Positions 1,988 to 15,266 of a stretch of 15,266 nucleotides of DNA are shown one piece after another (the first letter of the stretch is position 1; each line of letters opens with the position of its first letter). Where the stretch lies: NCBI GenBank assembly GCA_031416315.1, contig JANOTL010000084.1:1-15266 (forward strand), read 5' to 3'. The DNA is from Pseudomonadota bacterium (GTDB lineage: Bacteria; Bdellovibrionota_B; Oligoflexia; Oligoflexales; CAIYRB01). The notes beneath the pieces are model-generated. The model was not told where the DNA came from. It made no database searches and saw nothing but the letters and a program-made list of their open reading frames with translations. The translations under genes were made by a program, and so were the position numbers.

Positions 1988-4537
1988 TTGGCCAAGAAGA
2001 AGAAGTCTGCGCCGCGGGCCGTCTTATCCAACAAGCTTGGAAAACTCCCGCGCGCGCTTCCCGTATCCGCGACCTACAAGCACTGCCCCGACAACGCGTT
2101 CGACTTCAAGGACACGTCGGGGCTGGGCAAGTCGCACGACATCATCTCCCAGGAGCGCGCGGTGCGCGCGATCAACATGGGCCTGGGCATCCGCAAGCCT
2201 GGCTACAACATCTACGTCGCCGGTAGCCAGGGCACCGGCAAGACGAGCGTCATCCGCACCTTCCTCGAAAAGTGGTCGGGCGACGCAGAGACGCCCGTCG
2301 ACTGGCTCTACATCTACGACTTCAACGACACGGAAGCGCCGAAGGCGATCTCGGTCGCGGCCGGCGAAGGCCGGAAGTTCAAAAAGCAGATGGAGACCTT
2401 GGTCAAGAATCTGCGCGAGCAAGTGCCTAAAGCTCTTCAGAGCGAAGACTACGAAAACGCCGTGAACGCCTATGCTTCTGCCTCCAACGAGCGCAAAGCC
2501 AAGCACTACGCCGACCTCGAGAAGCTGGCGAAGTCGATGGACTTCGTCGTCAAGTCGACGCGCATGGGCATCGAGACGATCCCGATCGTGGACGGCCGCG
2601 CCCTGACCGAGAAAGAGTACGGCAAGCTCAACGACAAAGACCGCGAGACGATCGAGGACCACCGCTCGCAGCTCGAGCCGGAAGTCCTCGACTTCGCGCG
2701 CAAAGTGCGCGCGATCGAGTCGGAGACGAGCGAGTACATCGAGGCGCTCCGCGGCGAGCTCGGCAACTCCGTCGTCGGCCAGGAGCTCGATCCCCTCATC
2801 GAGGAATACGAGAAGCGCGATCCTGCGACCCCGCAGCTCGTCGCCTACTTGAAGGAAGTGAAAGAGCACATCCTCGAGAATCTCCTCGATTTCGTCGACC
2901 TGGGCGAGGAGGAAGGCCAGCAGCAATCGCCCTGGGGCGACGAGGAGCGCGACCGGTACGTCAAATACCGGGTCAACGTCTTCGTCGACAATACCAACCA
3001 GAAGGGCGCGCCGGTCATCATTGAGACCAACCCGACCTACTACAACCTGTTCGGCCGCATCGAGAAGAACGTCGAGCACGGCATGTACCTGACCGACTTC
3101 ACGATGATCAAGGCCGGCTCGGTGCACCGCGCCAACGGCGGCTACCTCGTCCTGAACGCCATGGACGTGTTCAAGACGACCTCGGGGATCTGGGACACGC
3201 TGAAGCGCGTGCTCAAGAACCGCCAGGGCTTCATCGAGGACATGGGCGAGCAGTTCTCGCTGCTCCCGACCTCCGGCCTGCGCCCCGTGCCGATCAGCCT
3301 CGACGTCAAAGTCATCATGATCGGCAACGACGACATCTATCACATGCTCCACGACGGCGACGACGACTTCGCCAAGATCTTCAAGATCAAGGCCGACTTC
3401 GACTACAAGATGCCGCGCACCGACGAGACCGAGGAAGCCTACGCGCACTTCGTCTCGACGCGCGCGGAGCTCGAGGATCTCCTGCCTTTCTCCCGCGGCG
3501 GCGTCGCGGCGGTCGTCGAGTTCGGCTCGCGGCTCGTGGAGGACCAGCGCGCGCTGTCGACCCAATTCGGCCAAATCAAGGATCTGACGATCGAAAGCGA
3601 CTACCTCGCGCGCGCCCAGGGCGCCAAAGGGGTCACGCGCGATCACGTCGAACAGGCCTTGGACCAGAAGTTCTTCCGCCACAACCTGGTGGAAGAGCAG
3701 ATGCTCGAGATGGTGCGGCACGAGGACGTCCTCCTCTCCCTCGACGGCGAGCAGGTCGGCCAAGTGAACGGCCTCGCCGTCTACGACATGGGCGACTACT
3801 CGTTCGGCAAGATGGGCCGCATCACCTGCACGATCTCGGTCACCGACGAGGGCGTGCTCAACATCGAGCGCGCCTCGAAGCTCTCCGGCAAGATCCACGA
3901 CAAGGGCGTCTTCATCATGTCGGGCTTCCTCACGGCGGTCTTGGCGAAGAAGAAGAACCTGGGCGTCGCGGCCAGCGTCTGCTTCGAGCAGAGCTACGGC
4001 CTCATCGACGGCGACAGCGCGACCGTGGCTGAGCTCATCTCGATCCTCTCGGCGATGGGCGAGATCCCGGTGAAGCAGGGCTTCGCGATGACCGGCAGCT
4101 TGAACCAATTCGGCGAGGTGCAGCCGGTCGGCGGCATCAACGAGAAGATCGAGGGCTTCTTCAAGACGGCGAAGCTGGTGGGCAAGGGCAATGGCCCATA
4201 TTCCGTGATGATTCCGCATCAAAACGTGCCCAACCTGATGTTGCATCGCGACGTGCGCGCGGCGATCAACGAGGGCTTTTTCCAGGTGATCCCGATCCGC
4301 TCGATCGGCGAGGCCTTCGAGATCGTCACCGGCATGCCGCTCGGCTTCACGAACGTGCTGCAGAACGAGTTCCCCGCGGGCTCGGCGCTGGAGAAGATCG
4401 AGAAGCGCCTGCGCGCCTTGCGTAAGGGCAACGAGGACGAGCACAAAGAGCGGCCGAAAGCGGTCGTCAGCACCTCGAAGACGCCGAAGCAGAAGGTCGC
4501 CAAGCCTCGAGCCGCCAGGCCCCCGCGGCGCAAGTGA
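1988..4537 (+). CDS. Lon-like (LonC/YcbZ-type, peptidase S16) protease with AAA-like domain
   Basis: Walker A GSQGTGKT, NPTYYNLFGRIE, AGSVHRANGGYLVL, catalytic Ser in DGDSAT and Lys in GGINEKIEGF. AAAGGA RBS precedes a TTG start. Confidence 0.93.
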   Translation: MAKKKKSAPRAVLSNKLGKLPRALPVSATYKHCPDNAFDFKDTSGLGKSHDIISQERAVRAINMGLGIRKPGYNIYVAGSQGTGKTSVIRTFLEKWSGDAETPVDWLYIYDFNDTEAPKAISVAAGEGRKFKKQMETLVKNLREQVPKALQSEDYENAVNAYASASNERKAKHYADLEKLAKSMDFVVKSTRMGIETIPIVDGRALTEKEYGKLNDKDRETIEDHRSQLEPEVLDFARKVRAIESETSEYIEALRGELGNSVVGQELDPLIEEYEKRDPATPQLVAYLKEVKEHILENLLDFVDLGEEEGQQQSPWGDEERDRYVKYRVNVFVDNTNQKGAPVIIETNPTYYNLFGRIEKNVEHGMYLTDFTMIKAGSVHRANGGYLVLNAMDVFKTTSGIWDTLKRVLKNRQGFIEDMGEQFSLLPTSGLRPVPISLDVKVIMIGNDDIYHMLHDGDDDFAKIFKIKADFDYKMPRTDETEEAYAHFVSTRAELEDLLPFSRGGVAAVVEFGSRLVEDQRALSTQFGQIKDLTIESDYLARAQGAKGVTRDHVEQALDQKFFRHNLVEEQMLEMVRHEDVLLSLDGEQVGQVNGLAVYDMGDYSFGKMGRITCTISVTDEGVLNIERASKLSGKIHDKGVFIMSGFLTAVLAKKKNLGVAASVCFEQSYGLIDGDSATVAELISILSAMGEIPVKQGFAMTGSLNQFGEVQPVGGINEKIEGFFKTAKLVGKGNGPYSVMIPHQNVPNLMLHRDVRAAINEGFFQVIPIRSIGEAFEIVTGMPLGFTNVLQNEFPAGSALEKIEKRLRALRKGNEDEHKERPKAVVSTSKTPKQKVAKPRAARPPRRK

Positions 4538-4569
4538 GCCAGGTGGTTCGGCTAGCGACCATGGCTCAC
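4534..4569 (+). other. Intercistronic stem-loop without a U-tract
   Basis: GTGAGCCA(4534-4541) pairs with TGGCTCAC(4562-4569), with an inner TGGT/ACCA pair. Confidence 0.35.
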
Positions 4570-4582
4570 CACCCAAAGGCCC

Positions 4583-5578
4583 ATGAGCGTGACGAACGAA
4601 CCACTCGCCGACACACTGAAGTCTCGCGCAAGGCTGAAGGCGGCCGTGCGCGAGTTTTTCTCGGGGACCGGGGCCGGCTACTTGGAGGTCGACACGCCCG
4701 TCGGCGTGATCTGCCCGGGGACTGAGGTGCATCTCGGCTACTTCGAGACCGCGTGGCGCGATCACCAGAAGCGCGAGCACCGGCTGTTCTTGCGCTCGAG
4801 CCCCGAGCTGCACATGAAGCAGGCGCTGGCGGCGCTCGGAGAAGGCGGGATTTTCCAGCTCGCGACCTGCTTCCGCAACGACGGCGAGATCTCGGCCTGG
4901 CACCATCCCGAGTTCACCATGCTCGAGTTCTACGAGACCGGGACCTCCTACCACGATTTCATCGCGCGGACGGAGGCCTTGCTCACTGCGACGCGCGAGG
5001 CCTTCAAGGCGACGAAGGTGCCGAAGACTTTTCGGCGGGTGACGGTGGCGGAGGCCTTCCGCGAGTGGGCCGGGCTCGAGCTGGAAGACGAGGACCCGGA
5101 GCTGGCGCCACGCGGCAAGAGCGCAGGAATCCGATCTTTGCGCGGCGACGAGGACTTCGAGACCGCCTTCTTCAAGATCTTGATCGACCGGATTGAGCCG
5201 GGAATCGAGCGCGAAGGCGCCGTCGTCCTGCACGACTATCCGGCGTCGCAGGCGGCGCTGGCGATGGTCGAAGGCGAGGTCGCGCGGCGATTCGAGTTTT
5301 ACGTCGGGCGGGCGGAGCTCTGTAACGGGTTCCAAGAGCTTCTCGATCCCGCCGCGAACCGCGCCCGGATTCGCGCGGCGATGGCACGGCGGAAGGCGCT
5401 CGGCAGCGTCGTGCCCGACGAGGACGAGGACTTCTACGCGGCCCTCGAAAATGGCCTCAAGCCGTGCTGCGGCAACGCCTTGGGCTTCGAGCGCTGGCTC
5501 GCGCTCCTGCTCGGCCGGGACGGGATCGCGAGCGCGGTGCCCTTTCGCGCGGCGGCGCCTTATCGAGGTCACGAGTGA
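4583..5578 (+). CDS. epmA: EF-P lysine aminoacylase (EpmA/GenX/PoxA), lysyl-tRNA synthetase class II paralog
   Basis: YLEVDTP, LRSSPELHMKQALA, IFQLATCFRNDGE..HHPEFTMLEFY, RFEFYVGRAELCNGFQEL and GNALGFERWL. At 331 aa it lacks an anticodon-binding domain. Confidence 0.92.
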   Translation: MSVTNEPLADTLKSRARLKAAVREFFSGTGAGYLEVDTPVGVICPGTEVHLGYFETAWRDHQKREHRLFLRSSPELHMKQALAALGEGGIFQLATCFRNDGEISAWHHPEFTMLEFYETGTSYHDFIARTEALLTATREAFKATKVPKTFRRVTVAEAFREWAGLELEDEDPELAPRGKSAGIRSLRGDEDFETAFFKILIDRIEPGIEREGAVVLHDYPASQAALAMVEGEVARRFEFYVGRAELCNGFQELLDPAANRARIRAAMARRKALGSVVPDEDEDFYAALENGLKPCCGNALGFERWLALLLGRDGIASAVPFRAAAPYRGHE

Positions 5579-7363: not shown

Positions 7364-7396
7364 GACGTTCCCGCGCCTTTGAGACCAAATCGCGGG

Positions 7397-8134
7397 ATGC
7401 CTCTCGCCGCGATCAGCGCCTGCCGCCGGCTGCCCGCCTCCCTAAACGACGGGGAGCGGCGCACGATGTTCGCCTTGTTCTCGCGCTATTACCGGGATGT
7501 CGCGTTCGAGACCTTCTCGAGCGATCTGAGCGAGAAGGACGTCGTCTGGGTGTTCGCGCAGCGCGGCGCCGTCGTCGGCTTCACGACGCTCCTCGTCCGA
7601 GAGAGCGAGCGCGAGGCGCTCCTCTACTCGGGCGACACCGTGCTCGAACGCGAGCTGTGGGGTTCGAAGCTCTTGCAGCGCGCGTTCCTGCGGGAGATCG
7701 TCCGCGTCAAGCTGCGGAGGCCCTGGCGGCCGGCATATTGGCTCCTGATGAGCAAGGGGGAGCGCACGTACCTCATGATGCGGCGCAACTTTCCCGTGTC
7801 CTATCCGCGCGCGGGGGCCACGGCGCCGTCGCGCCTGGCGCGCGTCATGGATGCCTTCTATGCACAGAAATTCGGCGCGGCGTACGACCCCGAGCGCGGA
7901 CTCGTGCGTTTCGGCGAGCGCCGGGGCGCGGTGCGAGAAGAGCACCTCGCCGCGCAGGCTGCGCAAAGGGAAGGCGGCGATGCCGAGGCGGCGTTTTTCC
8001 TGAAGCGCAATCCCGAGCATGCCGACGGGGTCGAGCTTGCCTGCATCGCGGAGCTGCGGCTGCGCGACGTGCCCTGGCAAATGAAGAAATTTCGGCGGCC
8101 GGCGCCGTCGCGGGAGATCGTCCTTGAAGTTTGA
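7397..8134 (+). CDS. Hypothetical protein, probable GNAT-like acyltransferase fold
   Basis: MFALFSRYY..FSSDLSEKD..VVGFTT..YSGDTVLERELWGSKLL resembles a GNAT beta4/acyl-CoA loop, then YWLLMSKGERTY and FFLKRNP..GVELACI. The start is uncertain (7379 TTG or 7397 ATG). Confidence 0.65.
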   Translation: MPLAAISACRRLPASLNDGERRTMFALFSRYYRDVAFETFSSDLSEKDVVWVFAQRGAVVGFTTLLVRESEREALLYSGDTVLERELWGSKLLQRAFLREIVRVKLRRPWRPAYWLLMSKGERTYLMMRRNFPVSYPRAGATAPSRLARVMDAFYAQKFGAAYDPERGLVRFGERRGAVREEHLAAQAAQREGGDAEAAFFLKRNPEHADGVELACIAELRLRDVPWQMKKFRRPAPSREIVLEV

Positions 8135-10913
8135 TCGCGTGCCGACGCGCCGAGATCCGCGCTGGCGTTTTTTGGCGCTTCTGGCGAGCTACGTCGTCTT
8201 CGGGATCACCTTTCTCGGCTTTAACCGCAGCCCCTTGCAGATCCTCATGGTCGTCTCGGCGACGTGCGGCCTCGACATGCTGTTCCATCACGTCGCGCGC
8301 GGGCGCAAGGACAGGACTGTGCTCTTCCCGCTGAGCTCGATGATCAGCGGCTTCGGGCTCGGAATTCTGGTGAACTACGCGCACGGGCCCTGGCTCTTGT
8401 TCGTGCCGGTCTTCTTCTCGGTGGCGTCGAAATACGTCCTGACCTTCAAAGGACGGCACGTCTTCAATCCGACTCTGATCGGCGTGACCCTCAGTCTCTT
8501 GCTCGGCGAGGGCATGATCAGCGCGTCGCCGAGCTATCAGTGGGGGGGGTCGCTGGCGATCTGCTTCTTCATCGTCGGCGCGGCGCTCTCGCTCTTCATC
8601 CGCGAGGTACGGCGCGTGCCGTTGACCCTGGCGTTCCTCGGGTTCTATTTCGTCGGGCTCGCGATCCGCGCCTACGTCATCCGTTATCACGTGCCGACGG
8701 AGACCTTGTTCTTGGGCGCGTTGACGGCCCCGGCGTTCTTCCTATTCACGTATTTCATGCTCACGGATCCGAAGACCTCGCCGCCGACGGCGCGAGGGCA
8801 GGTGCTCATGGCGTTCGTGATCGTCGGCCTCGACCTTTGGCTGCACAAGATGCACCGGCTTTCGACTTTGTTCCTTGCGGGATCGATGTACTTCGCCGGG
8901 CGCTTCGTCTGGCTCCACGTCGCAGAGCTGGTGAAAGATCCGCGGGGTGTCGGCCCGCGGCTTTCGCGATGGGCCCCTCGGCCGCTCACGGCGGCGGCGA
9001 TCGCGGCGCTCGGGCTGGTCGTGCACGCCGGGTTCATCCGGCCGAAACAAGACGCCGAGGCGCACGTGGCGATGACCGCGCAGGCGGCCGACGCGGTCGG
9101 GATCGCGGCCCGACCGAGCGACGCTCTGAGCCTCGTCGACCCGCGGATCGCGCATGTGGCGAAGTGGCTCCTCTCAATCGGCGACGCCGTGGCCTCGGCG
9201 GACGTCGACCTCGACGGGAGACAAGATCTCTTCTTCACCCTGCCCTTGAAGCAGGCCGAGGACCGCGGCGCGCTGTACCTAAACCGCGGCCACTTCAAGT
9301 TCGAGCGCGTCGAGATTCCTGAGCTCGCCCTCTTGGTCGCCGAGCCAAGGACGCACGGGTTTCCGGCCGGCGCCGTGTTCTTCGATGCCGACAACGACGG
9401 CGACCAGGATCTGCTCGTGCTCTTCGCCTGGGGAGAGTCGCGGCTTTTTCGCAACCGGCTGCTCGAGGACGGCAAGCTGAGCTTCGCCGCCGAGTCGGGG
9501 CCGTCGGCGCTTCGCGATTACACGGTGAGCGTCGCGGCGACGGTCGTCGACCTGAACCGCGACGGCAAGCTCGACGTGTTCCTCGCGAACGTCCTGCCGA
9601 CGACCTTGCCGGCGTACGACCAGCCGACGCGTTTCGACATCTTCCGGCTGCCGCAGCCTGCGCACGAGGGCGACCGGCGGATGTTCGACTTCATGCATCG
9701 GACCTGGTACGACGCGGCGAACGGCGGCGACAAGTGGATCTACATGAACGAGGGCGCAAGTTTCGCGCGGCAGAAGGCCGCAGAGCGCGAAACCTTCGGC
9801 ACGCGGTGGACTTTGGCGGTCGGCGCGGCGGATCTCAATCGCGACGGCAGCCCGGAGCTTTATCTGGCGAACGATTTTGGGCCCGATCAGCTGTTCCAGA
9901 ACGACGGGAAAGGCCGCTTTGCGGCCGTACGCGGCAGCTTCATCGGCGAGATGGGGCGCGACACGTACAAGGGCATGAACGTCTCGATCGGTGACGTCGA
10001 CGGCAACGGCCACCAGGACCTCTACGTCTCTAACGTGCACAAGCCGCTCCAGGCGGAAGGCAGCCTCTTGTGGATGAACGACGGCACCATGGCGACCGCG
10101 GGCGCCGCCGCTTTCACGGACCGAGCATCCGGGCGGAATGCGCTGAACGAGCGGCGCTTCGGTTGGGGCGCGGCGATGGGTGACCTAGACCTCGACGGCA
10201 AGCTCGACTTGGCGCAGGCCAATGGCATGGTGAACGACCGGTACGATCGCACGGCGGCCGAGGGCCAGCCTTGCGACGATTACTGGTACTACGCCGAAAA
10301 GGTGGCGCTGACGAACCCCGACGTGCACGGCTTCGCCGACCGCTGGGCCGATCTGCGCGGGCGCTGCATCTTCCCGGCCGACGCGAATCGGCTGTATTTG
10401 AACCGAGACCGCTACTTCGTCGACGTCGCGGCGAGCGTGGGCTTCGATCTGCCGAAGGACGCGCAGGGGAAGCCGAGCGGGCCGTCGCGCGCCGTGGCGA
10501 TGGTCGATCTCGACGAGGACGGCGACCTCGACCTCGTGGTCACGCATCAATTCTCGGGGCCGAGCTTCTTCGAGAACGGCACGGCGCAGGCGGACGGGCC
10601 GCACTGGGTGGGGCTGGCGCTGGAGGGCGACGGCAGGCGCTGCAATCGCGACGCGATCGGCACGGTCGCGCGGGTGCAGGACGGCGCGTATCCGGAGCAG
10701 ATGCGCGAGGTGCAGGCGGTTTCCGGATTTTCGGCGCAGGGTGATCGCCGCATCCTTTTCGGCCTTGGCGGGAAAGGCGGCGCGAGCCGGGAGGTCGCGG
10801 TGCGCGTGAAGTGGTGCGGCGACGGACCCGAGCAGGCGCTCTTGCTGCCTACGCGTCAGTATCATCGGATTCGCCAGCCGCGCGTCTCCGAGCCGATGGC
10901 GGGCACGCCATGA
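8124..10913 (+). CDS. Fusion of an UnbU/RnfD(NqrB)-like polytopic membrane domain with an FG-GAP beta-propeller and ASPIC/UnbV (CRTAC1-like) domain
   Basis: The first ~300 aa are multi-TM with GRHVFNP and FMLTDPKTSP. Seven DxD/NxDG-type motifs follow, then HWVGLALEG..NRDAIG..QMREV..SGFSAQGDRRILFGLG..VRVKW. GGGAG RBS precedes TTG 8124. Confidence 0.88.
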   Translation: MKFDRVPTRRDPRWRFLALLASYVVFGITFLGFNRSPLQILMVVSATCGLDMLFHHVARGRKDRTVLFPLSSMISGFGLGILVNYAHGPWLLFVPVFFSVASKYVLTFKGRHVFNPTLIGVTLSLLLGEGMISASPSYQWGGSLAICFFIVGAALSLFIREVRRVPLTLAFLGFYFVGLAIRAYVIRYHVPTETLFLGALTAPAFFLFTYFMLTDPKTSPPTARGQVLMAFVIVGLDLWLHKMHRLSTLFLAGSMYFAGRFVWLHVAELVKDPRGVGPRLSRWAPRPLTAAAIAALGLVVHAGFIRPKQDAEAHVAMTAQAADAVGIAARPSDALSLVDPRIAHVAKWLLSIGDAVASADVDLDGRQDLFFTLPLKQAEDRGALYLNRGHFKFERVEIPELALLVAEPRTHGFPAGAVFFDADNDGDQDLLVLFAWGESRLFRNRLLEDGKLSFAAESGPSALRDYTVSVAATVVDLNRDGKLDVFLANVLPTTLPAYDQPTRFDIFRLPQPAHEGDRRMFDFMHRTWYDAANGGDKWIYMNEGASFARQKAAERETFGTRWTLAVGAADLNRDGSPELYLANDFGPDQLFQNDGKGRFAAVRGSFIGEMGRDTYKGMNVSIGDVDGNGHQDLYVSNVHKPLQAEGSLLWMNDGTMATAGAAAFTDRASGRNALNERRFGWGAAMGDLDLDGKLDLAQANGMVNDRYDRTAAEGQPCDDYWYYAEKVALTNPDVHGFADRWADLRGRCIFPADANRLYLNRDRYFVDVAASVGFDLPKDAQGKPSGPSRAVAMVDLDEDGDLDLVVTHQFSGPSFFENGTAQADGPHWVGLALEGDGRRCNRDAIGTVARVQDGAYPEQMREVQAVSGFSAQGDRRILFGLGGKGGASREVAVRVKWCGDGPEQALLLPTRQYHRIRQPRVSEPMAGTP

Positions 10914-11692
10914 GCAACTGGCTGCGCTGGATCGTCGTGCTTTGGCTCGGGGCGTTGAGCGGCTCGGACGCGCTTGCCGACGAGCTTCCGGACGAGGTGG
11001 ACGACTGCAACGCGCTTTGGAAGAAGGACGGCTCCGGCTGCAAGGATTTGCGCGGGCGCGAGGGTCACTGCCTGTGGCATCCGCGCCGTTCGCCGCCTCA
11101 ATGGGCGCAGACGAAGTGCGACAAGAAGGACCAATGCCTCCACTGCACGGCAAAGGTGCTGCAGGGCGACGCCAAAGCGCTGGCGGCGAGCGTGGAAACG
11201 ATGTTGGAGGAGGAGGAGTTCGACGAGGCAAGAGGCGCGCTGAGCTACATCGAGTCGAAGACGGGGACGAAGAAGAGCGATCTCGCCCGCCTCTACATGC
11301 AATTCGGCTATCACCTCGCGAAGGCAAAAAAAATGGGCGAGGCATTCGACGCCAACGACCAGGCGATGCGCCTCGATCCGAATCTGCTCGAAGCTTTCTT
11401 CAACGACGCCTGCTATCAGTCGATCGATGAAAAGGCCGCGAAATCGCTCGCCGCCCTGAACCTCGTGGCCGACAAACTGACGCAGGCAAATGCCGGCAAA
11501 GACCGCTGGCAGAAGTTCCGGAAGATGATGGCCGAAGACAAAGACCTGGCGTTCGTGCGCAAAGATCCCGACTTTAAGAAGACGGCGGCGCGCTTCGAAG
11601 CGGTGAAAGCGGCGGTGCTCGCGCCGAAAGCGCAGCCGGCGCCGAAGCCTAAGGTGAAGGCGAAACCGGCGCCCAAGAAGCCGACTCCGTGA
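10910..11692 (+). CDS. Secreted protein with a small 6-Cys N-terminal domain, TPR repeats and a Pro/Lys-rich tail (260 aa)
   Basis: ATGA overlap with the upstream stop, signal peptide ending SDALA, TPR segment YMQFGYHLAKAKKMGEAFDANDQAMRLDPNLLEAFFNDACYQS, and a terminal EDKDLAFVR motif. Confidence 0.8.
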   Translation: MSNWLRWIVVLWLGALSGSDALADELPDEVDDCNALWKKDGSGCKDLRGREGHCLWHPRRSPPQWAQTKCDKKDQCLHCTAKVLQGDAKALAASVETMLEEEEFDEARGALSYIESKTGTKKSDLARLYMQFGYHLAKAKKMGEAFDANDQAMRLDPNLLEAFFNDACYQSIDEKAAKSLAALNLVADKLTQANAGKDRWQKFRKMMAEDKDLAFVRKDPDFKKTAARFEAVKAAVLAPKAQPAPKPKVKAKPAPKKPTP

Positions 11693-12039
11693 GCGACTCC
11701 TCCTTCGTGACGTTGTGGCTCGCAGCCTTCGTCTCGACCCTTGTCGTGGAGACGGTCGTCTACACGATGATGTTCCACGCAGAGCCTCGTCGCCGGGTGA
11801 TTTTCGCCGCGATCGCGGTCAACTGCCTGACGCACCCGACACTATGGTCGCTCGGCGGCTACCTGTTCTTTCAGCCGTACCTTGTCTGGATGGTGGCGTG
11901 CGAGATCGTCATCATCCTAGCGGAAGGCGCGATGATGAAGCGCATCCTGAAGGTGCCGTGGCACGATGCGTTGGTGGCGAGCCTGGTCGCCAACGTCCTT
12001 TCGGTCGCGTTCGGTTACTTGCGGCGAGCCGTGTTCTAG
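11689..12039 (+). CDS. Small 4-TM membrane protein of unknown function
   Basis: GTGA overlap with the upstream stop and four hydrophobic segments carrying TLVVE, NCLTHP, CE..AE and ANVLS. Confidence 0.8.
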   Translation: MSDSSFVTLWLAAFVSTLVVETVVYTMMFHAEPRRRVIFAAIAVNCLTHPTLWSLGGYLFFQPYLVWMVACEIVIILAEGAMMKRILKVPWHDALVASLVANVLSVAFGYLRRAVF

Positions 12040-13112
12040 GGCAAGACCCGGTCCGCGATCGCATTGGCGAGCTCCGACGGGTCGGCGGCATCGCGGTTCA
12101 CCAAGACCGCGATCATCGCGCGCTGCGCCGGGAAGCGATGGATCACGGTGCGGAAGCCGACCGAGCTGCCCGTGTGCGACTGGCGCGCGAAACCGCGGTA
12201 AGAGCCGAGACTCCAGCCGTAGCCGTACGTCGTCGGCGTTCCGTCGCGCAGCCGGCCGGGCTCGAAGATCCGGCGCATGCTGTCGACGTTGGCGAGGCGA
12301 CCGCTTTCGAGCGCCGCCTCCCAGGCGACGAGATCCAGGACCGAGGAGTAGATGCCGCCGTCGCCGCGAGTCGCGCTCGTGACGCTCTGATCGGTGCGGC
12401 GAAATCCGGAGCCGACCTGCGCGTAGCCGAAAGCGCGTTGCTCGATCGCGGTGCCCTCGCCTTGGTACACCACGCTCGCGTGCATGCCGGCGGGTTGGAA
12501 AATCTCCTCACGCAGAAGCTGGTCGAGGCGTTTGCGCGTCGCCTCTTCGAGAATGAGCCCGAGAAGAACGTAGCCGCCGTTGCTATAGGCATATTGGGTT
12601 CCGGGCGGGAACTGAGTGCGCGAAACGCTTGCGAGGAGCGTGAGCACGTCCCGGTCGCTGAGCTGCTCGGTGCGGCCCGCGGGGATGAGATCCTCGTAAT
12701 CCTGCAGCCCGGAGGTATGGTGCACGAGATGGTCGACGGTGATCGCGCGACCGTAGGCGGGAAAGCTCGGGAAGAAGTCGGTGAGCCTTTGGTCGAGCCG
12801 TAGAGTGCCGCGCTCGATCTGTTGCGCGACGGCTAGGCCGATGAACTGCTTGGTGACCGACGCCAGGCGAAAGTTGGTCCGCACGCTCGCAGCCACGCGA
12901 TCTTCGAGGCTCGCAGCGCCGTAACCGGCGCGGTGCACGACCTCGCCGTCGACGACGACCGCGACGGCGGCGCCCGCAACGGTCGCACGATCGAAGTCGC
13001 GGAAGAGGGCGTCGATGTCGGGAAGCTGCGGGTCCAGAGTGAGCTTTTGGGCCAGTGCGGACGAGCTGAGAAATAGGCTTGCCACGAGCAGCATCGCTCC
13101 CTCGATAGACAT
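12036..13112 (-). CDS. Secreted serine hydrolase, beta-lactamase class C / peptidase S12 family
   Basis: SxxK in ASVTKQF, YxN in YAYSNGGY, HTG, LVHHTSGL, and a signal peptide ending SALA. Its stop overlaps the convergent gene at CTAG. Confidence 0.92.
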   Translation of the reverse strand: MSIEGAMLLVASLFLSSSALAQKLTLDPQLPDIDALFRDFDRATVAGAAVAVVVDGEVVHRAGYGAASLEDRVAASVRTNFRLASVTKQFIGLAVAQQIERGTLRLDQRLTDFFPSFPAYGRAITVDHLVHHTSGLQDYEDLIPAGRTEQLSDRDVLTLLASVSRTQFPPGTQYAYSNGGYVLLGLILEEATRKRLDQLLREEIFQPAGMHASVVYQGEGTAIEQRAFGYAQVGSGFRRTDQSVTSATRGDGGIYSSVLDLVAWEAALESGRLANVDSMRRIFEPGRLRDGTPTTYGYGWSLGSYRGFARQSHTGSSVGFRTVIHRFPAQRAMIAVLVNRDAADPSELANAIADRVLP

Positions 13113-13377
13113 GAATTCCCCCTGGATTTGGGGAAATCATATCACCCGACGCGGAATGGGTCGCTAGCCTAGGGCCATCTCGAAGCCGGGCGCGCGCGTG
13201 CCCGGGGGACGGCCGCGCGGCCCTCGGGGAGGATCTCGAACAAGGTCGCAGCTACTTTGAAGCCGAGATATCCGCGGGTTGCCCGTGGAATCGGCTCGAG
13301 CTCGGGCTCGGCGAGGCCCATGAGATGAGCGCGGCCGCCGCTCTCTGTTTTTTGGTAGCCCTCGCTGCCGCGCGACC

Positions 13378-14121
13378 TTATGGCCACGCCGAGTATGGGA
13401 GCGGGGCGTTCTTCTTTTCTTTTTCATTCATGAACGGCGGCACCGGCGAGGCGCAGGAAAGCTTCCGAAATTCAACGCACCCGGCGACCTGGCGATCGGC
13501 CGCGGCTTTTTTACCGTTGTCGCGAAGCCGCTTTACGAACTTCTCGCAGTCCTGCGCCGTCAAGTCGCAGAGTCTCTTGTGGTGCCGCTTGATGTCTTCG
13601 TCGACGTTCTTTTTCGCGGCGTTGCGCAAGCCATCGAGGCAATACTGCCGACCCGCAGGGTTTGCGAACAGGTGCGTCTGACAAGCCGCCTCGAGAATCT
13701 CGCGCAATTCCTTGATGTCGTCAGCCTCATTGACCGCAGATGTGCACTGCTCCTGACCGCCAAGCAGGCAAGCCTTCTTGATCCAAAAGCCAAAGTCCGG
13801 ACCCAAGTAAGCGAGCACGGCGCAAGCGGCGGCGCTTTTTTTGGTTTCGCAAAGCGGCTCCAGTTTGTTGAGCGTCGCCGCATCCTGACAGGTCTGGCTC
13901 TTGCTGCAAGCCAGTGCCAAGCACGCGGCCTCGACCTTCCAGTCGCACCCGAACTTGAAGAAGTTCGCGCCGCGCCGCGGGGTATTGTGCATATAGTCCT
14001 GGGCGCCGTGGATGATGCAGTCGGTCTCGATGCCGAGCTTGCAGTCGCCCTCGTCGTTCGGCCAGGCGTATGCGGCACCGGCGAACCAGTAAAGGAGCAA
14101 CCCGATCGTGAAAGTACCCAT
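13378..14121 (-). CDS. Secreted Cys-rich Sel1-like (Hcp-type) repeat protein
   Basis: Signal peptide ending AAYA and 16 Cys in 8 pairs, several Cx7C (FFKFGCDWKVEAACLALA, WIKKACLLGGQEQC). Confidence 0.72.
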   Translation of the reverse strand: MGTFTIGLLLYWFAGAAYAWPNDEGDCKLGIETDCIIHGAQDYMHNTPRRGANFFKFGCDWKVEAACLALACSKSQTCQDAATLNKLEPLCETKKSAAACAVLAYLGPDFGFWIKKACLLGGQEQCTSAVNEADDIKELREILEAACQTHLFANPAGRQYCLDGLRNAAKKNVDEDIKRHHKRLCDLTAQDCEKFVKRLRDNGKKAAADRQVAGCVEFRKLSCASPVPPFMNEKEKKNAPLPYSAWP

Positions 14122-14188
14122 GGTTTCGACCTGGATTGGGCGTTACAACTGACATCATACTCTGCCGCTACGAAAACGAGCAAAGATC

Positions 14189-15154
14189 ATGCTTCCTGGA
14201 CTGACAGACTTGTTTCACGCGGTACTTGCGGTGAGCGTTCTGCTTGTACTCGGCGGAGTCGCCGTGATCTACCTCGGCGGGTCCGTTGTCCTCGGCGGCG
14301 TCATACTGGTCGCCGGCGCGATTCCTTTGATTTACATGGCGGCCGCGGCCGTCTCGCACAACGCAAAGACCACGGGAAATTGGCGCCGCTACGTCACTTA
14401 TCTCGACGCGATCCCCGAGCGCGAGCCTGAAGACTTGAGGAGGATCGTGCCGCCTGAAGGCTCAGTACCCCTGGGAGCCTTGCGCCAGCCCGAAACAGTA
14501 GCGGTCCCTCAGTGTCCAGGCCAAGTCTTTACGAGCGAGGATGTACCGCTGACGATTGCTGCCGCGTCCGGCCGGGCTTCCGTTTTGGCGTGGATGCTCG
14601 GTCGGCCTTCGCCGCCATTCACCTTCCACGGCGCAAGCAACTCCAGTCCCAGGCGCCCCGCCATCGCCGCCGCCCTGGTTTGCGGCCATTTCGGCGAGCT
14701 TGCTCGGGCGCTCGACGGGGTGACAGGGCGCAGTAAAGTGATCGAAGCGAAAGGCCTGGGCGTGTTCTCGGCTCTTCACTACGCCAGTTTTCTGGGTGAC
14801 GTCGCGGCTGTGAAGACGCTATTGAGCCTGGGCCTCGAGGCCGACGCGACCGCCCAAACCTTCGTCGTCTCGCCGGGCTATTCTTTGGACCTTCGGAGCC
14901 ATGACGACGGTCGGTTTCATACGGGTAAGCTCAAAGGTTGCTGTCAAATGACGCCTTTGATGAATGCCGCCCAGCGAGGCTCCCTGCCCATCGTCAAGAT
15001 GCTCCACGAACACTGCGTCGACATCGGGCGCCGGGACTCAGGACAAAAGAAAGCCCTAGATTTTGCCACGGCGGGGGGACACGGCGACGTCGCCGCATAT
15101 CTTAAGGCAGCCCGGCGTCCGCGCAATTGCTCTGGTACGGGGCGCAGTAGCTAG
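14189..15154 (+). CDS. Ankyrin-repeat protein with two N-terminal TM helices
   Basis: SALHYASFLGDVAAVKTLLSLG, TPLMNAAQRGSLPIVKML and KALDFATAGGHGDVAAYL, with an N-terminal hydrophobic hairpin. Confidence 0.8.
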   Translation: MLPGLTDLFHAVLAVSVLLVLGGVAVIYLGGSVVLGGVILVAGAIPLIYMAAAAVSHNAKTTGNWRRYVTYLDAIPEREPEDLRRIVPPEGSVPLGALRQPETVAVPQCPGQVFTSEDVPLTIAAASGRASVLAWMLGRPSPPFTFHGASNSSPRRPAIAAALVCGHFGELARALDGVTGRSKVIEAKGLGVFSALHYASFLGDVAAVKTLLSLGLEADATAQTFVVSPGYSLDLRSHDDGRFHTGKLKGCCQMTPLMNAAQRGSLPIVKMLHEHCVDIGRRDSGQKKALDFATAGGHGDVAAYLKAARRPRNCSGTGRSS

Positions 15155-15266
15155 TCTCTGGCGCGAAACCCGCCAGAGACAATCCTGTGAAACAAAGCGA
15201 CGAAGGATCTCGGCGAAAACCAACTGAAACAATTGACTCGGGTAGATACTTCGATGCGCTAAGGAT

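What the first reader, a model, noticed from the sequence alone, without database searches (positions are those of the whole stretch)
8124..10913. Single-chain fusion of UnbU-like and UnbV-like domains with no enediyne PKS nearby
Seen: one continuous 929-aa ORF joins an RnfD/NqrB-like membrane domain to a 7-motif FG-GAP propeller and an ASPIC/UnbV domain. Known: enediyne core cassettes encode UnbU (E5, RnfD-like) and UnbV (E4) as separate genes next to pksE, UnbL (E3) and thioesterase E10. None of those partners is in this window, and the flanks are unrelated genes. Inference: the fusion implies UnbU and UnbV work as a physical complex with the propeller outside the membrane, used here in a different, uncharacterised envelope or lipid-modification pathway.
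Basis: partly seen in the sequence, partly recalled or inferred. Interest (0 to 1): 0.85.

Follow-up and report, generated by a model that had tools for sequence, protein, structure and literature searches.

The report
Enediyne-like membrane fusion in lipid cassette
This gene fuses relatives of two unexplained enediyne-antibiotic proteins into one predicted membrane protein, and across many bacterial groups it travels with an unstudied set of amide-forming and oxidising enzymes, so it likely modifies a lipid on the outer face of the inner membrane using a flavin wire rather than making an enediyne.

Summary
The 929-aa ORF is real: an RnfD-like membrane domain, seven calcium-type repeats and an ASPIC/UnbV domain in one frame. 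It belongs to a conserved family: the best 120 of 646 hits carry all three domains. No enediyne PKS, E3 or E10 was found in this 93% complete genome or in 80 homologous loci. The claim that its flanks are unrelated is wrong. The upstream gene (7379-8134) is a conserved GNAT-like partner and is fused to it in one homologue. The other partners (GH3 amide ligase, tandem GNAT, Rieske oxygenase, desaturases, P450, radical SAM, small membrane protein) lie on another contig. In 121 Neisseriaceae genomes the same 13 carry the intact fusion and the three partners tested, though the genes are scattered. The membrane domain lacks RnfD's FMN loop but keeps two riboflavin ligands in 105 of 105 sequences, and topology puts the propeller outside. 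Both domains form clades separate from enediyne E4/E5. Best reading: a flavin-wired, periplasm-facing tailoring enzyme for an unknown amide-linked lipid (about 0.5); export is the main rival. No structure could be predicted. This scan had already noted PKS-free E4/E5 pairs and GH3-GNAT cassettes on other DNA; none of the notes I saw linked the two.

The parts
7379..8134 (+). 'B251': conserved GNAT-like partner gene, stop overlapping the fusion's start (true start may be a few codons downstream)
   Evidence: In 43 of 80 homologous loci, and in 31 of the other 37 genomes; fused N-terminally to the U-V protein in P0189; aligns to the first GNAT domain of the tandem GNAT partner, hhalign prob 78.6, E=1.7e-5; no Pfam hit
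8124..10913 (+). UnbU-like + FG-GAP propeller + ASPIC/UnbV fusion protein, 929 aa
8124..8927 (+). UnbU-like domain: predicted 10-helix RnfD/NqrB fold without the ~70-residue FMN loop
   Evidence: Pfam PF03116; alignment to E. coli RsxD shows the gap that holds its SQAT motif; hydropathy and K/R pattern
8466..8468 (+). Asn115 codon, equivalent of the riboflavin-contacting Asn of RnfD/NqrB (NP motif)
   Evidence: Invariant in 105 of 105; aligned to the RsxD NP motif; ligand role from PMC9588780 and PMC10643135 passages
8766..8768 (+). Asp215 codon, equivalent of NqrB Asp346 / RnfD Asp248 (TDP motif)
   Evidence: Invariant in 105 of 105; alignment
8982..9035 (+). Predicted 11th helix (residues ~287-304), in the place of the N-terminal anchor of stand-alone E4
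   Evidence: 17-residue hydropathy mean 1.64, above 1.5 in 70 of 105; 3.3 K/R before against 1.0 after; E4 proteins begin with a basic then hydrophobic stretch
9051..10583 (+). CRTAC1-like FG-GAP propeller, predicted extracytoplasmic, with invariant polar and aromatic residues outside the calcium motifs (e.g. W348, H525, D584, K616, N619, H639, E645, H735)
   Evidence: (PDB 9etn, CRTAC1, E=1.4e-13)
10605..10868 (+). ASPIC/UnbV domain with Cys840 and Cys898
   Evidence: PF07593 at residues 844-905; Cys invariant in 105 of 105 close homologues, absent in a deeper sub-clade
13138..13341 (-). Frameshifted 3' remnant of the tandem-GNAT partner gene; the intact copy is on contig C73 (63250-64386)
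   Evidence: 89% over 206 bases to C73:64208-64413, no other copy in the genome; translations match the partner's C-terminus across a frame change

Best explanation
The gene encodes a single membrane protein that travels with a GH3-ligase/GNAT/oxygenase gene set across several phyla, and it likely acts as a tailoring enzyme on that pathway's probably amide-linked lipid at the outer face of the inner membrane, using a predicted non-covalent riboflavin in its RnfD-like domain as an electron wire. Shown: the fusion, its partners and their co-occurrence, loss of the FMN loop, retention of the Asn and Asp that bind riboflavin in RnfD/NqrB, and no enediyne cassette found. Inferred, step by step: (1) the GH3 enzyme adenylates a free fatty acid and joins it to an amine, as OlsH does, and the GNAT-fold proteins add further acyl or aminoacyl groups; (2) desaturases, the Rieske enzyme and optional P450, AurF-like, PAP2, hydrolase and B12 radical SAM enzymes modify the chain; (3) the 11th helix carries the calcium-stabilised propeller into the periplasm, where its conserved His/Lys/Asp/Trp residues would bind the lipid; (4) the U domain would pass electrons between that site and the quinone pool or a cytoplasmic carrier; the direction is unknown; (5) the small membrane protein M220 would be its dedicated partner. 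By extension, enediyne E4 and E5 would be the split version of the same kind of machine, acting on a polyene.
For: Partners in 80 GTDB loci: tandem GNAT 57, GH3 51, Rieske 46, B251 43, M220 43. Genome-wide, the tandem GNAT is in 21 of the 23 remaining genomes and B251 in 31 of 37. In 121 Neisseriaceae genomes the same 13 carry the intact fusion, tandem GNAT, B251 and M220; one genome with only a C-terminal fragment has none of the three. This genome has all core partners. Triple fusions B251-U-V and M220-U-V exist. N115 and D215 are invariant in 105 of 105 and align with the RsxD motifs whose RnfD/NqrB equivalents contact riboflavin. NqrB/RnfD-like subunits that lost the flavinylation site but keep a non-covalent flavin site are described for electron transfer (PMC10979944). 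A stand-alone U gene follows a redoxin gene in Metabacillus. I recognised no ferredoxin or reductase among the ORF clusters recurring in 3 or more loci (read from their first residues). GH3 motifs I-III all matched in 27 of 44 long GH3 ORFs. OlsH precedent (PMC12493201).
Against: No structure was predicted, so the pocket, topology and active site rest on alignments and hydropathy. The NqrB Asn200 position is His in this family (numbering). Conserved Asn/Asp could be structural or line a channel. No flavinylated or NAD-binding partner is encoded, unlike the Nqr/Rnf-like systems. GH3/GNAT/Rieske cassettes occur without the fusion: in this phylum B251 is in 11 of 104 genomes, the fusion in 3, so it is not needed for the core chemistry. 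One fusion-less cassette sits beside an ABC exporter. CRTAC1-type propellers have no known catalytic activity (recalled). The product is unknown and B251's GNAT assignment is weak. Kin are not independent, and several Neisseriaceae genomes helped build the profiles.
Confidence: 0.5

Rival explanations
1. The fusion is the pathway's export or presentation module: the RnfD-like domain would move the finished lipid across the inner membrane and the propeller would receive it in the periplasm, with no redox chemistry.
For: No exporter family recurs among the ORF clusters of the 80 fusion loci as far as I recognised them, while one fusion-less cassette has a MacB/FtsX ABC exporter next to it (G261). 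PMC9588780 likens the RnfD architecture to urea and ammonia transporters. The FMN needed for RnfD's full transmembrane wire is gone.
Against: G270 has both the fusion and an MMPL exporter on one contig. The fusion-less cassette of G231 shows desaturase and PAP2 genes, not an exporter, in the 11.7 kb read. Riboflavin-contact residues are invariant.
Confidence: 0.25
2. The fusion is a non-catalytic scaffold, sensor or sequestering (self-protection) protein that binds the product or organises the other membrane enzymes.
For: FG-GAP/CRTAC1 propellers are calcium-binding binding modules; the only solved relative of the propeller found is human CRTAC1. Triple fusions with M220 or B251 fit a scaffold.
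Against: Dozens of invariant polar and aromatic residues outside the calcium motifs, several shared with enediyne E4 at 25-28% overall identity, look more like a substrate site.
Confidence: 0.13
3. The gene is a displaced part of an enediyne cassette or makes an enediyne with a PKSE elsewhere.
For: Homology to SgcE4 and SgcE5; some database names read 'enediyne biosynthesis protein E4'.
Against: No E2/E3 or E10 match in the genome; the best SgcE match is 33% over 885 of 1939 aa on a contig without E4/E5. No PKS, E3 or E10 hit in 80 loci. DUF1702 in 1 of 49 fusion genomes, positive control found, and that one has no E4, E5 or PKS match in 20 kb. Separate clades.
Confidence: 0.03
4. The N-terminal domain is a subunit of an Rnf/Nqr ion pump.
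For: Pfam PF03116 above cut-off; automatic names 'RnfD subunit'.
Against: TIGR01946 scores 25 bits against a cut-off of 207. The FMN loop and its threonine are absent. No other Rnf/Nqr subunit was recognised among the recurring neighbours.
Confidence: 0.03

Closest known systems
E4 (UnbV) and E5 (UnbU) of the enediyne PKSE cassette E3-E4-E5-E-E10 (e.g. SgcE4/SgcE5 of C-1027, NZ_CP013739.1)
   Same: Homologous over both domains (26% and 28%); same FMN-less RnfD fold with HxxNP and TDP motifs; same anchor-then-propeller-then-UnbV layout and shared motif residues. Roles of E3/E4/E5 are stated as uncertain in PMC11069151.
   Different: One chain, in U-V order, while the genes run E4 then E5; separate clades in quick trees; no PKSE, E3 or E10; partners are GH3, GNATs and oxygenases; extra conserved Cys and His residues in the propeller.
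RnfD / NqrB subunits of the Rnf and Na+-NQR complexes
   Same: Predicted ten-helix fold; Asn and Asp of the riboflavin site retained.
   Different: About 70 residues with the flavinylated Thr are missing; no other subunits recognised; fused to a propeller.
Nqr/Rnf-like two-subunit systems (PMC10979944)
   Same: An NqrB/RnfD-like domain without the flavinylation site, with an apparent non-covalent flavin site, paired with an extracytoplasmic protein.
   Different: No NAD-binding domain and no NqrC/RnfG-like flavinylated partner; the outer partner is a CRTAC1-like propeller on the same chain.
OlsH/OlsI ornithine-lipid pathway of Singulisphaera acidiphila (PMC12493201)
   Same: A bacterial GH3 enzyme, and in 18 of 80 loci an alpha/beta-hydrolase-like protein with Ser, Asp and His motifs.
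   Different: Adds two GNAT-fold proteins, Rieske and desaturase enzymes, M220 and the fusion; OlsH/OlsI orthology and the amine substrate were not tested.
Human CRTAC1 (PDB 9etn) and bacterial CRTAC1-family proteins
   Same: FG-GAP propeller plus ASPIC/UnbV domain.
   Different: Membrane-tethered through an RnfD-like domain; acidobacterial CRTAC1-family proteins fall outside the fusion clade.

Membership tests
Enediyne PKSE cassette (E3-E4-E5-E-E10) | Iterative PKSE gene linked to E4/E5 | tested here: not met
   No full-length PKSE match in the genome; none in 80 loci
Enediyne PKSE cassette (E3-E4-E5-E-E10) | E3 (DUF1702) | tested here: not met
   0 in own genome; 1 of 49 fusion genomes, orphan
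Enediyne PKSE cassette (E3-E4-E5-E-E10) | Thioesterase E10 | tested here: not met
   No tblastn hit with two E10 proteins in the genome and no blastp hit in the loci
Enediyne E4/E5 proteins | Homology over both domains | tested here: met
Enediyne E4/E5 proteins | Nested in the E4 and E5 clades | tested here: not met
   Fusion clade (SH-aLRT 99-100) lies apart from the E5 clade (100) and the E4 clade (100, with one unassigned protein inside); quick trees, root unknown
Enediyne E4/E5 proteins | E4 and E5 bind each other | not testable with these tools
RnfD/NqrB | Covalent FMN on Thr in an [S/T]GA[S/T]-like motif of the outer linker | tested here: not met
   Linker deleted against RsxD; 10 of 105 have a TGAS, all near residue 75-86 in helix 3 and not in the linker
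RnfD/NqrB | Riboflavin-site Asn and Asp | tested here: met
   N115 and D215 invariant in 105 of 105, aligned; binding itself untested
RnfD/NqrB | Curated equivalog-level score and operon with other Rnf/Nqr subunits | tested here: not met
   TIGR01946 25.1 against 207; none recognised among recurring neighbours
CRTAC1/ASPIC-UnbV family | FG-GAP repeats followed by an ASPIC/UnbV domain | tested here: met
CRTAC1/ASPIC-UnbV family | Seven-bladed propeller fold | not testable with these tools
OlsH/OlsI ornithine-lipid pathway | GH3 enzyme with adenylation motifs | tested here: met
   Pfam GH3; motifs I-III in 27 of 44
OlsH/OlsI ornithine-lipid pathway | Orthology to OlsH/OlsI and ornithine as substrate | not tested
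   OlsH and OlsI sequences were not fetched; the substrate needs an assay

The most novel reading that the evidence does not exclude
U-V is a general and unrecognised class of membrane enzyme: an FMN-less RnfD module wires a periplasmic calcium propeller to the quinone pool to oxidise (desaturate to alkynes, or halogenate) hydrophobic chains. Enediyne producers use it as E5+E4 on a polyene, while cyanobacteria, environmental Proteobacteria and oral commensals such as Neisseria elongata, Kingella and Eikenella use this fused form on a GH3-made amide lipid. That would explain E4/E5 and predict an undiscovered class of unsaturated amide lipids.
Probability: 0.2. Interest if true: 0.88.

Novelty: new variant of a known kind. 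Interest (0 to 1): 0.62.

Why it matters
E4 and E5 are conserved in enediyne cassettes and their roles are stated as uncertain (PMC11069151). This family supplies a one-chain, PKS-free version in cultured strains (Neisseria elongata ATCC 25295, Massilia glaciei, Parachitinimonas caeni, Roseateles sp. NT4, Nodularia harveyana) and two residue-level predictions that carry over to E4/E5: a riboflavin pocket (Asn/Asp) and an outward-facing propeller. It also gives the widespread orphan GH3-GNAT cassette a specific add-on module (fusion plus M220) and points to an unknown lipid in oral commensals. It warns too that 'enediyne biosynthesis protein' and 'RnfD' labels on such genes are misleading.

Tried and rejected
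PDB sequence searches: the U domain alone found nothing, B251 nothing, the tandem GNAT only weak GNAT hits, E 0.03-0.75. The ESM Atlas gave no family for M220 (best 0.84, low-confidence model), and Pfam nothing meaningful. A search for split close relatives of the U domain gave 60 short proteins, six labelled partial and many on small contigs; it does not show a split form of this family. 'M208', recurring in 34 loci, is a shadow frame inside the fusion gene and was dropped, as were antisense shadow clusters. The downstream genes (10910-11692 TPR-like, 11689-12039) did not recur among the clusters listed and were rejected as partners. P0205 (U-V-AurF) and P0234 read as frameshifted and were not used as evidence. 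The Hormoscilla DUF1702 gene was fetched as a possible split cassette and proved an orphan. No RNA holder was listed; small-share runs X2, X4, X5 gave only short pieces. The promoter scan found no sigma-70 site. The careful tree did not finish; all trees are quick ones. Literature searches that found no paper on this fusion or cluster: (open-access library only). The 2024 diiodotetrayne paper is not held; I saw only its title in a reference list. Supplements were not read.
Full report
Observation. The frame 8124-10913 (+) is open for 929 aa. Pfam finds NQR2_RnfD_RnfE (36.2 bits, cut-off 27.7), FG-GAP repeats and ASPIC/UnbV, and seven DxDxDG-type motifs can be counted. The fusion is a family, not an accident: 646 proteins scored E<=1e-20 among the 8000 candidates scored, and the best 120 (self included) all carry the same four Pfam families; the other 119 are 48-56% identical. 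A scan of GTDB genomes gave 219 confirmed stretches, of which the best 80 loci were kept. They come from Gamma- and Betaproteobacteria (including Neisseria elongata, Kingella, Eikenella, Massilia), cyanobacteria, Bdellovibrionota, Verrucomicrobiota, Acidobacteriota, Elusimicrobiota, Bacteroidota and others. Distribution is patchy: only 1 of 40 sampled relatives of this genome had a match, a distant one with a stop.

Not an enediyne cassette. Real cassette genes were fetched from the C-1027 plasmid and three other records. The fusion matches SgcE5 at 28% and SgcE4 at 26%. In this 93.3% complete genome there is one ASPIC/UnbV match, no DUF1702, no tblastn hit for E2, E3 or E10, and only a 33% match over 885 of 1939 residues for SgcE, on another contig. 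None of the ORFs of the 80 loci matched the PKS, E2/E3 or E10 queries. DUF1702 was in 1 of 49 fusion-bearing genomes, with the C-1027 plasmid as positive control; that gene has no E4, E5 or PKS match in the 20 kb read. In quick maximum-likelihood trees both domains form fusion clades (SH-aLRT 99-100) separate from the E5 and E4 clades; roots are unknown, and one short protein (P0162) fell inside the fusion clade. Enediyne loci run E4 then E5, while the fusion runs U then V. Three more U-V fusions (P0276, P0326, P0293) and a fatty-acid-hydroxylase-V fusion (P0285) lie elsewhere in the trees, so the pairing has probably arisen or been kept more than once.

The real neighbourhood. Clustering the ORFs of the 80 loci revealed a conserved gene set: tandem GNAT 'A369' in 57 loci, GH3 51, Rieske oxygenase 46, GNAT-like 'B251' 43, small membrane protein 'M220' 43, one desaturase family in 29 (plus 3 desaturase-PAP2-squalene-synthase-like fusions), NTF2/DUF4440 28, a second desaturase 20, an alpha/beta-hydrolase-like protein 18, PAP2 14, AurF-like 11, hexapeptide-like 10, B12 radical SAM 8, P450 5. 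Many loci are short; among the 27 with at least 8 kb on both sides the core counts are 21, 22, 20, 19 and 20. B251 is the window's own upstream gene (7379-8134). Where a partner was missing from the locus it was usually elsewhere in the genome: A369 in 21 of 23, B251 in 31 of 37. In this genome, contig C73 (46.5-64.4 kb) holds a desaturase, NTF2, radical SAM, a P450-M220 fusion, the second desaturase, GH3, Rieske and A369, interrupted by a DUF4178/spermidine-synthase block; the hydrolase is on C39. The window even keeps a frameshifted 3' remnant of A369 at 13138-13341.

Co-occurrence in both directions. Among 121 Neisseriaceae genomes, 13 have the intact fusion, and exactly those 13 have A369, B251 and M220, although the genes are scattered; a 14th genome with only residues 725-901 has none of the three. 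These genomes are kin, and some helped build the profiles. In this genome's own phylum the link is one-way: of 104 genomes, 3 have the fusion (one frameshifted), 11 have B251, and 2 have M220, both of them intact-fusion carriers. Fusion-less GH3/Rieske/GNAT cassettes exist (G261, G231). So the fusion, with M220, is an add-on to a more common cassette. Triple fusions B251-U-V (P0189) and M220-U-V (P0185) tie both partners to it.

Anatomy. Aligned with E. coli RsxD, the N-terminal domain lacks about 70 residues that include RsxD's SQAT motif, as do enediyne E5 and stand-alone U proteins. RnfD carries its covalent FMN in this outer linker, and its riboflavin is flanked by an Asn and an Asp (PMC9588780 passages); in NqrB, Thr162, Asn200, Asn203, Phe342 and Asp346 contact riboflavin, and D346A cuts activity (PMC10643135 passages). 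The corresponding positions here appear to be S/T75, H112, N115, F211 and D215; the last four are invariant in 105 of 105 sequences. The mapping runs through RsxD motifs; NqrB itself was not aligned. Averaged hydropathy shows ten helices with K/R-rich loops after helices 2, 4, 6, 8 and 10, then an eleventh where stand-alone E4 has its N-terminal anchor. That places the N-terminus inside and the propeller outside. Two Cys pairs (717/748, 840/898) invariant in close homologues fit an oxidising compartment, though a deeper sub-clade lacks them. The propeller has many invariant residues outside its calcium motifs, some shared with E4 (W348, D584, K616 and M618 among them).

Mechanism. The partners point to an amide-linked, oxidatively tailored lipid: GH3-type OlsH makes N-acyl ornithine from free fatty acid and ATP (PMC12493201 abstract and sections 4 and 9), and no acyl carrier protein or ketosynthase was seen in these loci. 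I judge it most likely (0.5) that the fusion is a flavin-wired tailoring enzyme facing the periplasm. An FMN-less NqrB/RnfD-like subunit with a non-covalent flavin site is already proposed for outward electron transfer (PMC10979944 passages), and in NqrB riboflavin lies 11.6 A from the quinone. The enediyne parallel is that PKSE/TE releases a free heptaene that is then converted to the core (PMC9992847 passages) while E3/E4/E5 roles are uncertain (PMC11069151 passage). That the five-gene cassette yields iodinated polyynes is recalled from a paper I could not open (title seen). Export (0.25) and scaffold or sequestration (0.13) remain open. No structure could be predicted, which caps the confidence.

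Novelty. The architecture is in databases under automatic names ('RnfD subunit', 'enediyne biosynthesis protein E4'). Nine searches of the open-access library found no paper on the fusion or its cluster; the two hits I opened mention only annotation-level enediyne genes. This scan had noted PKS-free UnbU/UnbV pairs, another RnfD-CRTAC1 fusion and GH3-GNAT cassettes on other DNA; I used these as leads only, and one led me to the OlsH paper. What is added here is the link between the two, the M220 partner, and the riboflavin-site and topology predictions. Verdict: new variant of a known kind, interest 0.62.

Noticed in passing
G000:C31:55775-56932 (-), locus L002: A second, stand-alone UnbU-like gene (32% to the fusion's N-domain, also without the FMN loop) directly upstream of a gene that looks like DUF2330 (family name recalled, not scanned).
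   Followed up: partly
L093:3081-15910 (Serratia proteamaculans AGR_495 plasmid NZ_MT039191.1): E3-E4-E5 trio inside a cluster with an acyl carrier protein, two ketosynthases, SDR, aminotransferase and glycosyltransferase but no PKSE: a second non-enediyne use of the trio.
   Followed up: no
L094:10796-20915 (Sinorhizobium meliloti T073 pSymA): A complete E3-E4-E5-PKSE-E10 cassette in a rhizobium, unannotated in the record as held.
   Followed up: no
L128, L131-L133, L135 (metagenome contigs): E3-E4-E5 flanked by unusual ketosynthase-containing fusion proteins instead of a canonical PKSE.
   Followed up: no
P0285; P0276, P0326, P0293: A fatty-acid-hydroxylase-UnbV fusion and three UnbU-UnbV fusions from other lineages.
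   Followed up: partly
G000:C73:49640-51436 (L085:7641-9437): The P450 and M220 genes of the cluster are fused in one frame in this genome.
   Followed up: partly
G000:C73:52275-60131: A DUF4178 / spermidine-synthase / flavin amine-oxidase block sits in the middle of the GH3 cluster.
   Followed up: no
G000:C19:21532-26564 (L088): A second GH3 gene with a MacB/FtsX permease, an alpha/beta hydrolase and an enolase-family gene.
   Followed up: no
L115:9462-10001 (G112, Neisseriaceae): Only the C-terminal 180 codons of the fusion remain, and the three partner genes searched were not found: a pathway in the course of loss.
   Followed up: partly
L114:9085-10119 (G064, Hormoscilla): Orphan DUF1702 (E3-like) gene with no E4, E5 or PKS match nearby.
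   Followed up: partly
window 15148-15266: A ~120-base repeat found at 8 other places in the genome, several near contig ends.
   Followed up: no
window 1988-5578; 10910-12039; 12036-15154: Housekeeping and local genes: LonB-like protease, EpmA-like ligase, TPR-like exported protein with a small membrane protein, serine beta-lactamase-fold protein, Cys-rich exported protein and an ankyrin protein.
   Followed up: no
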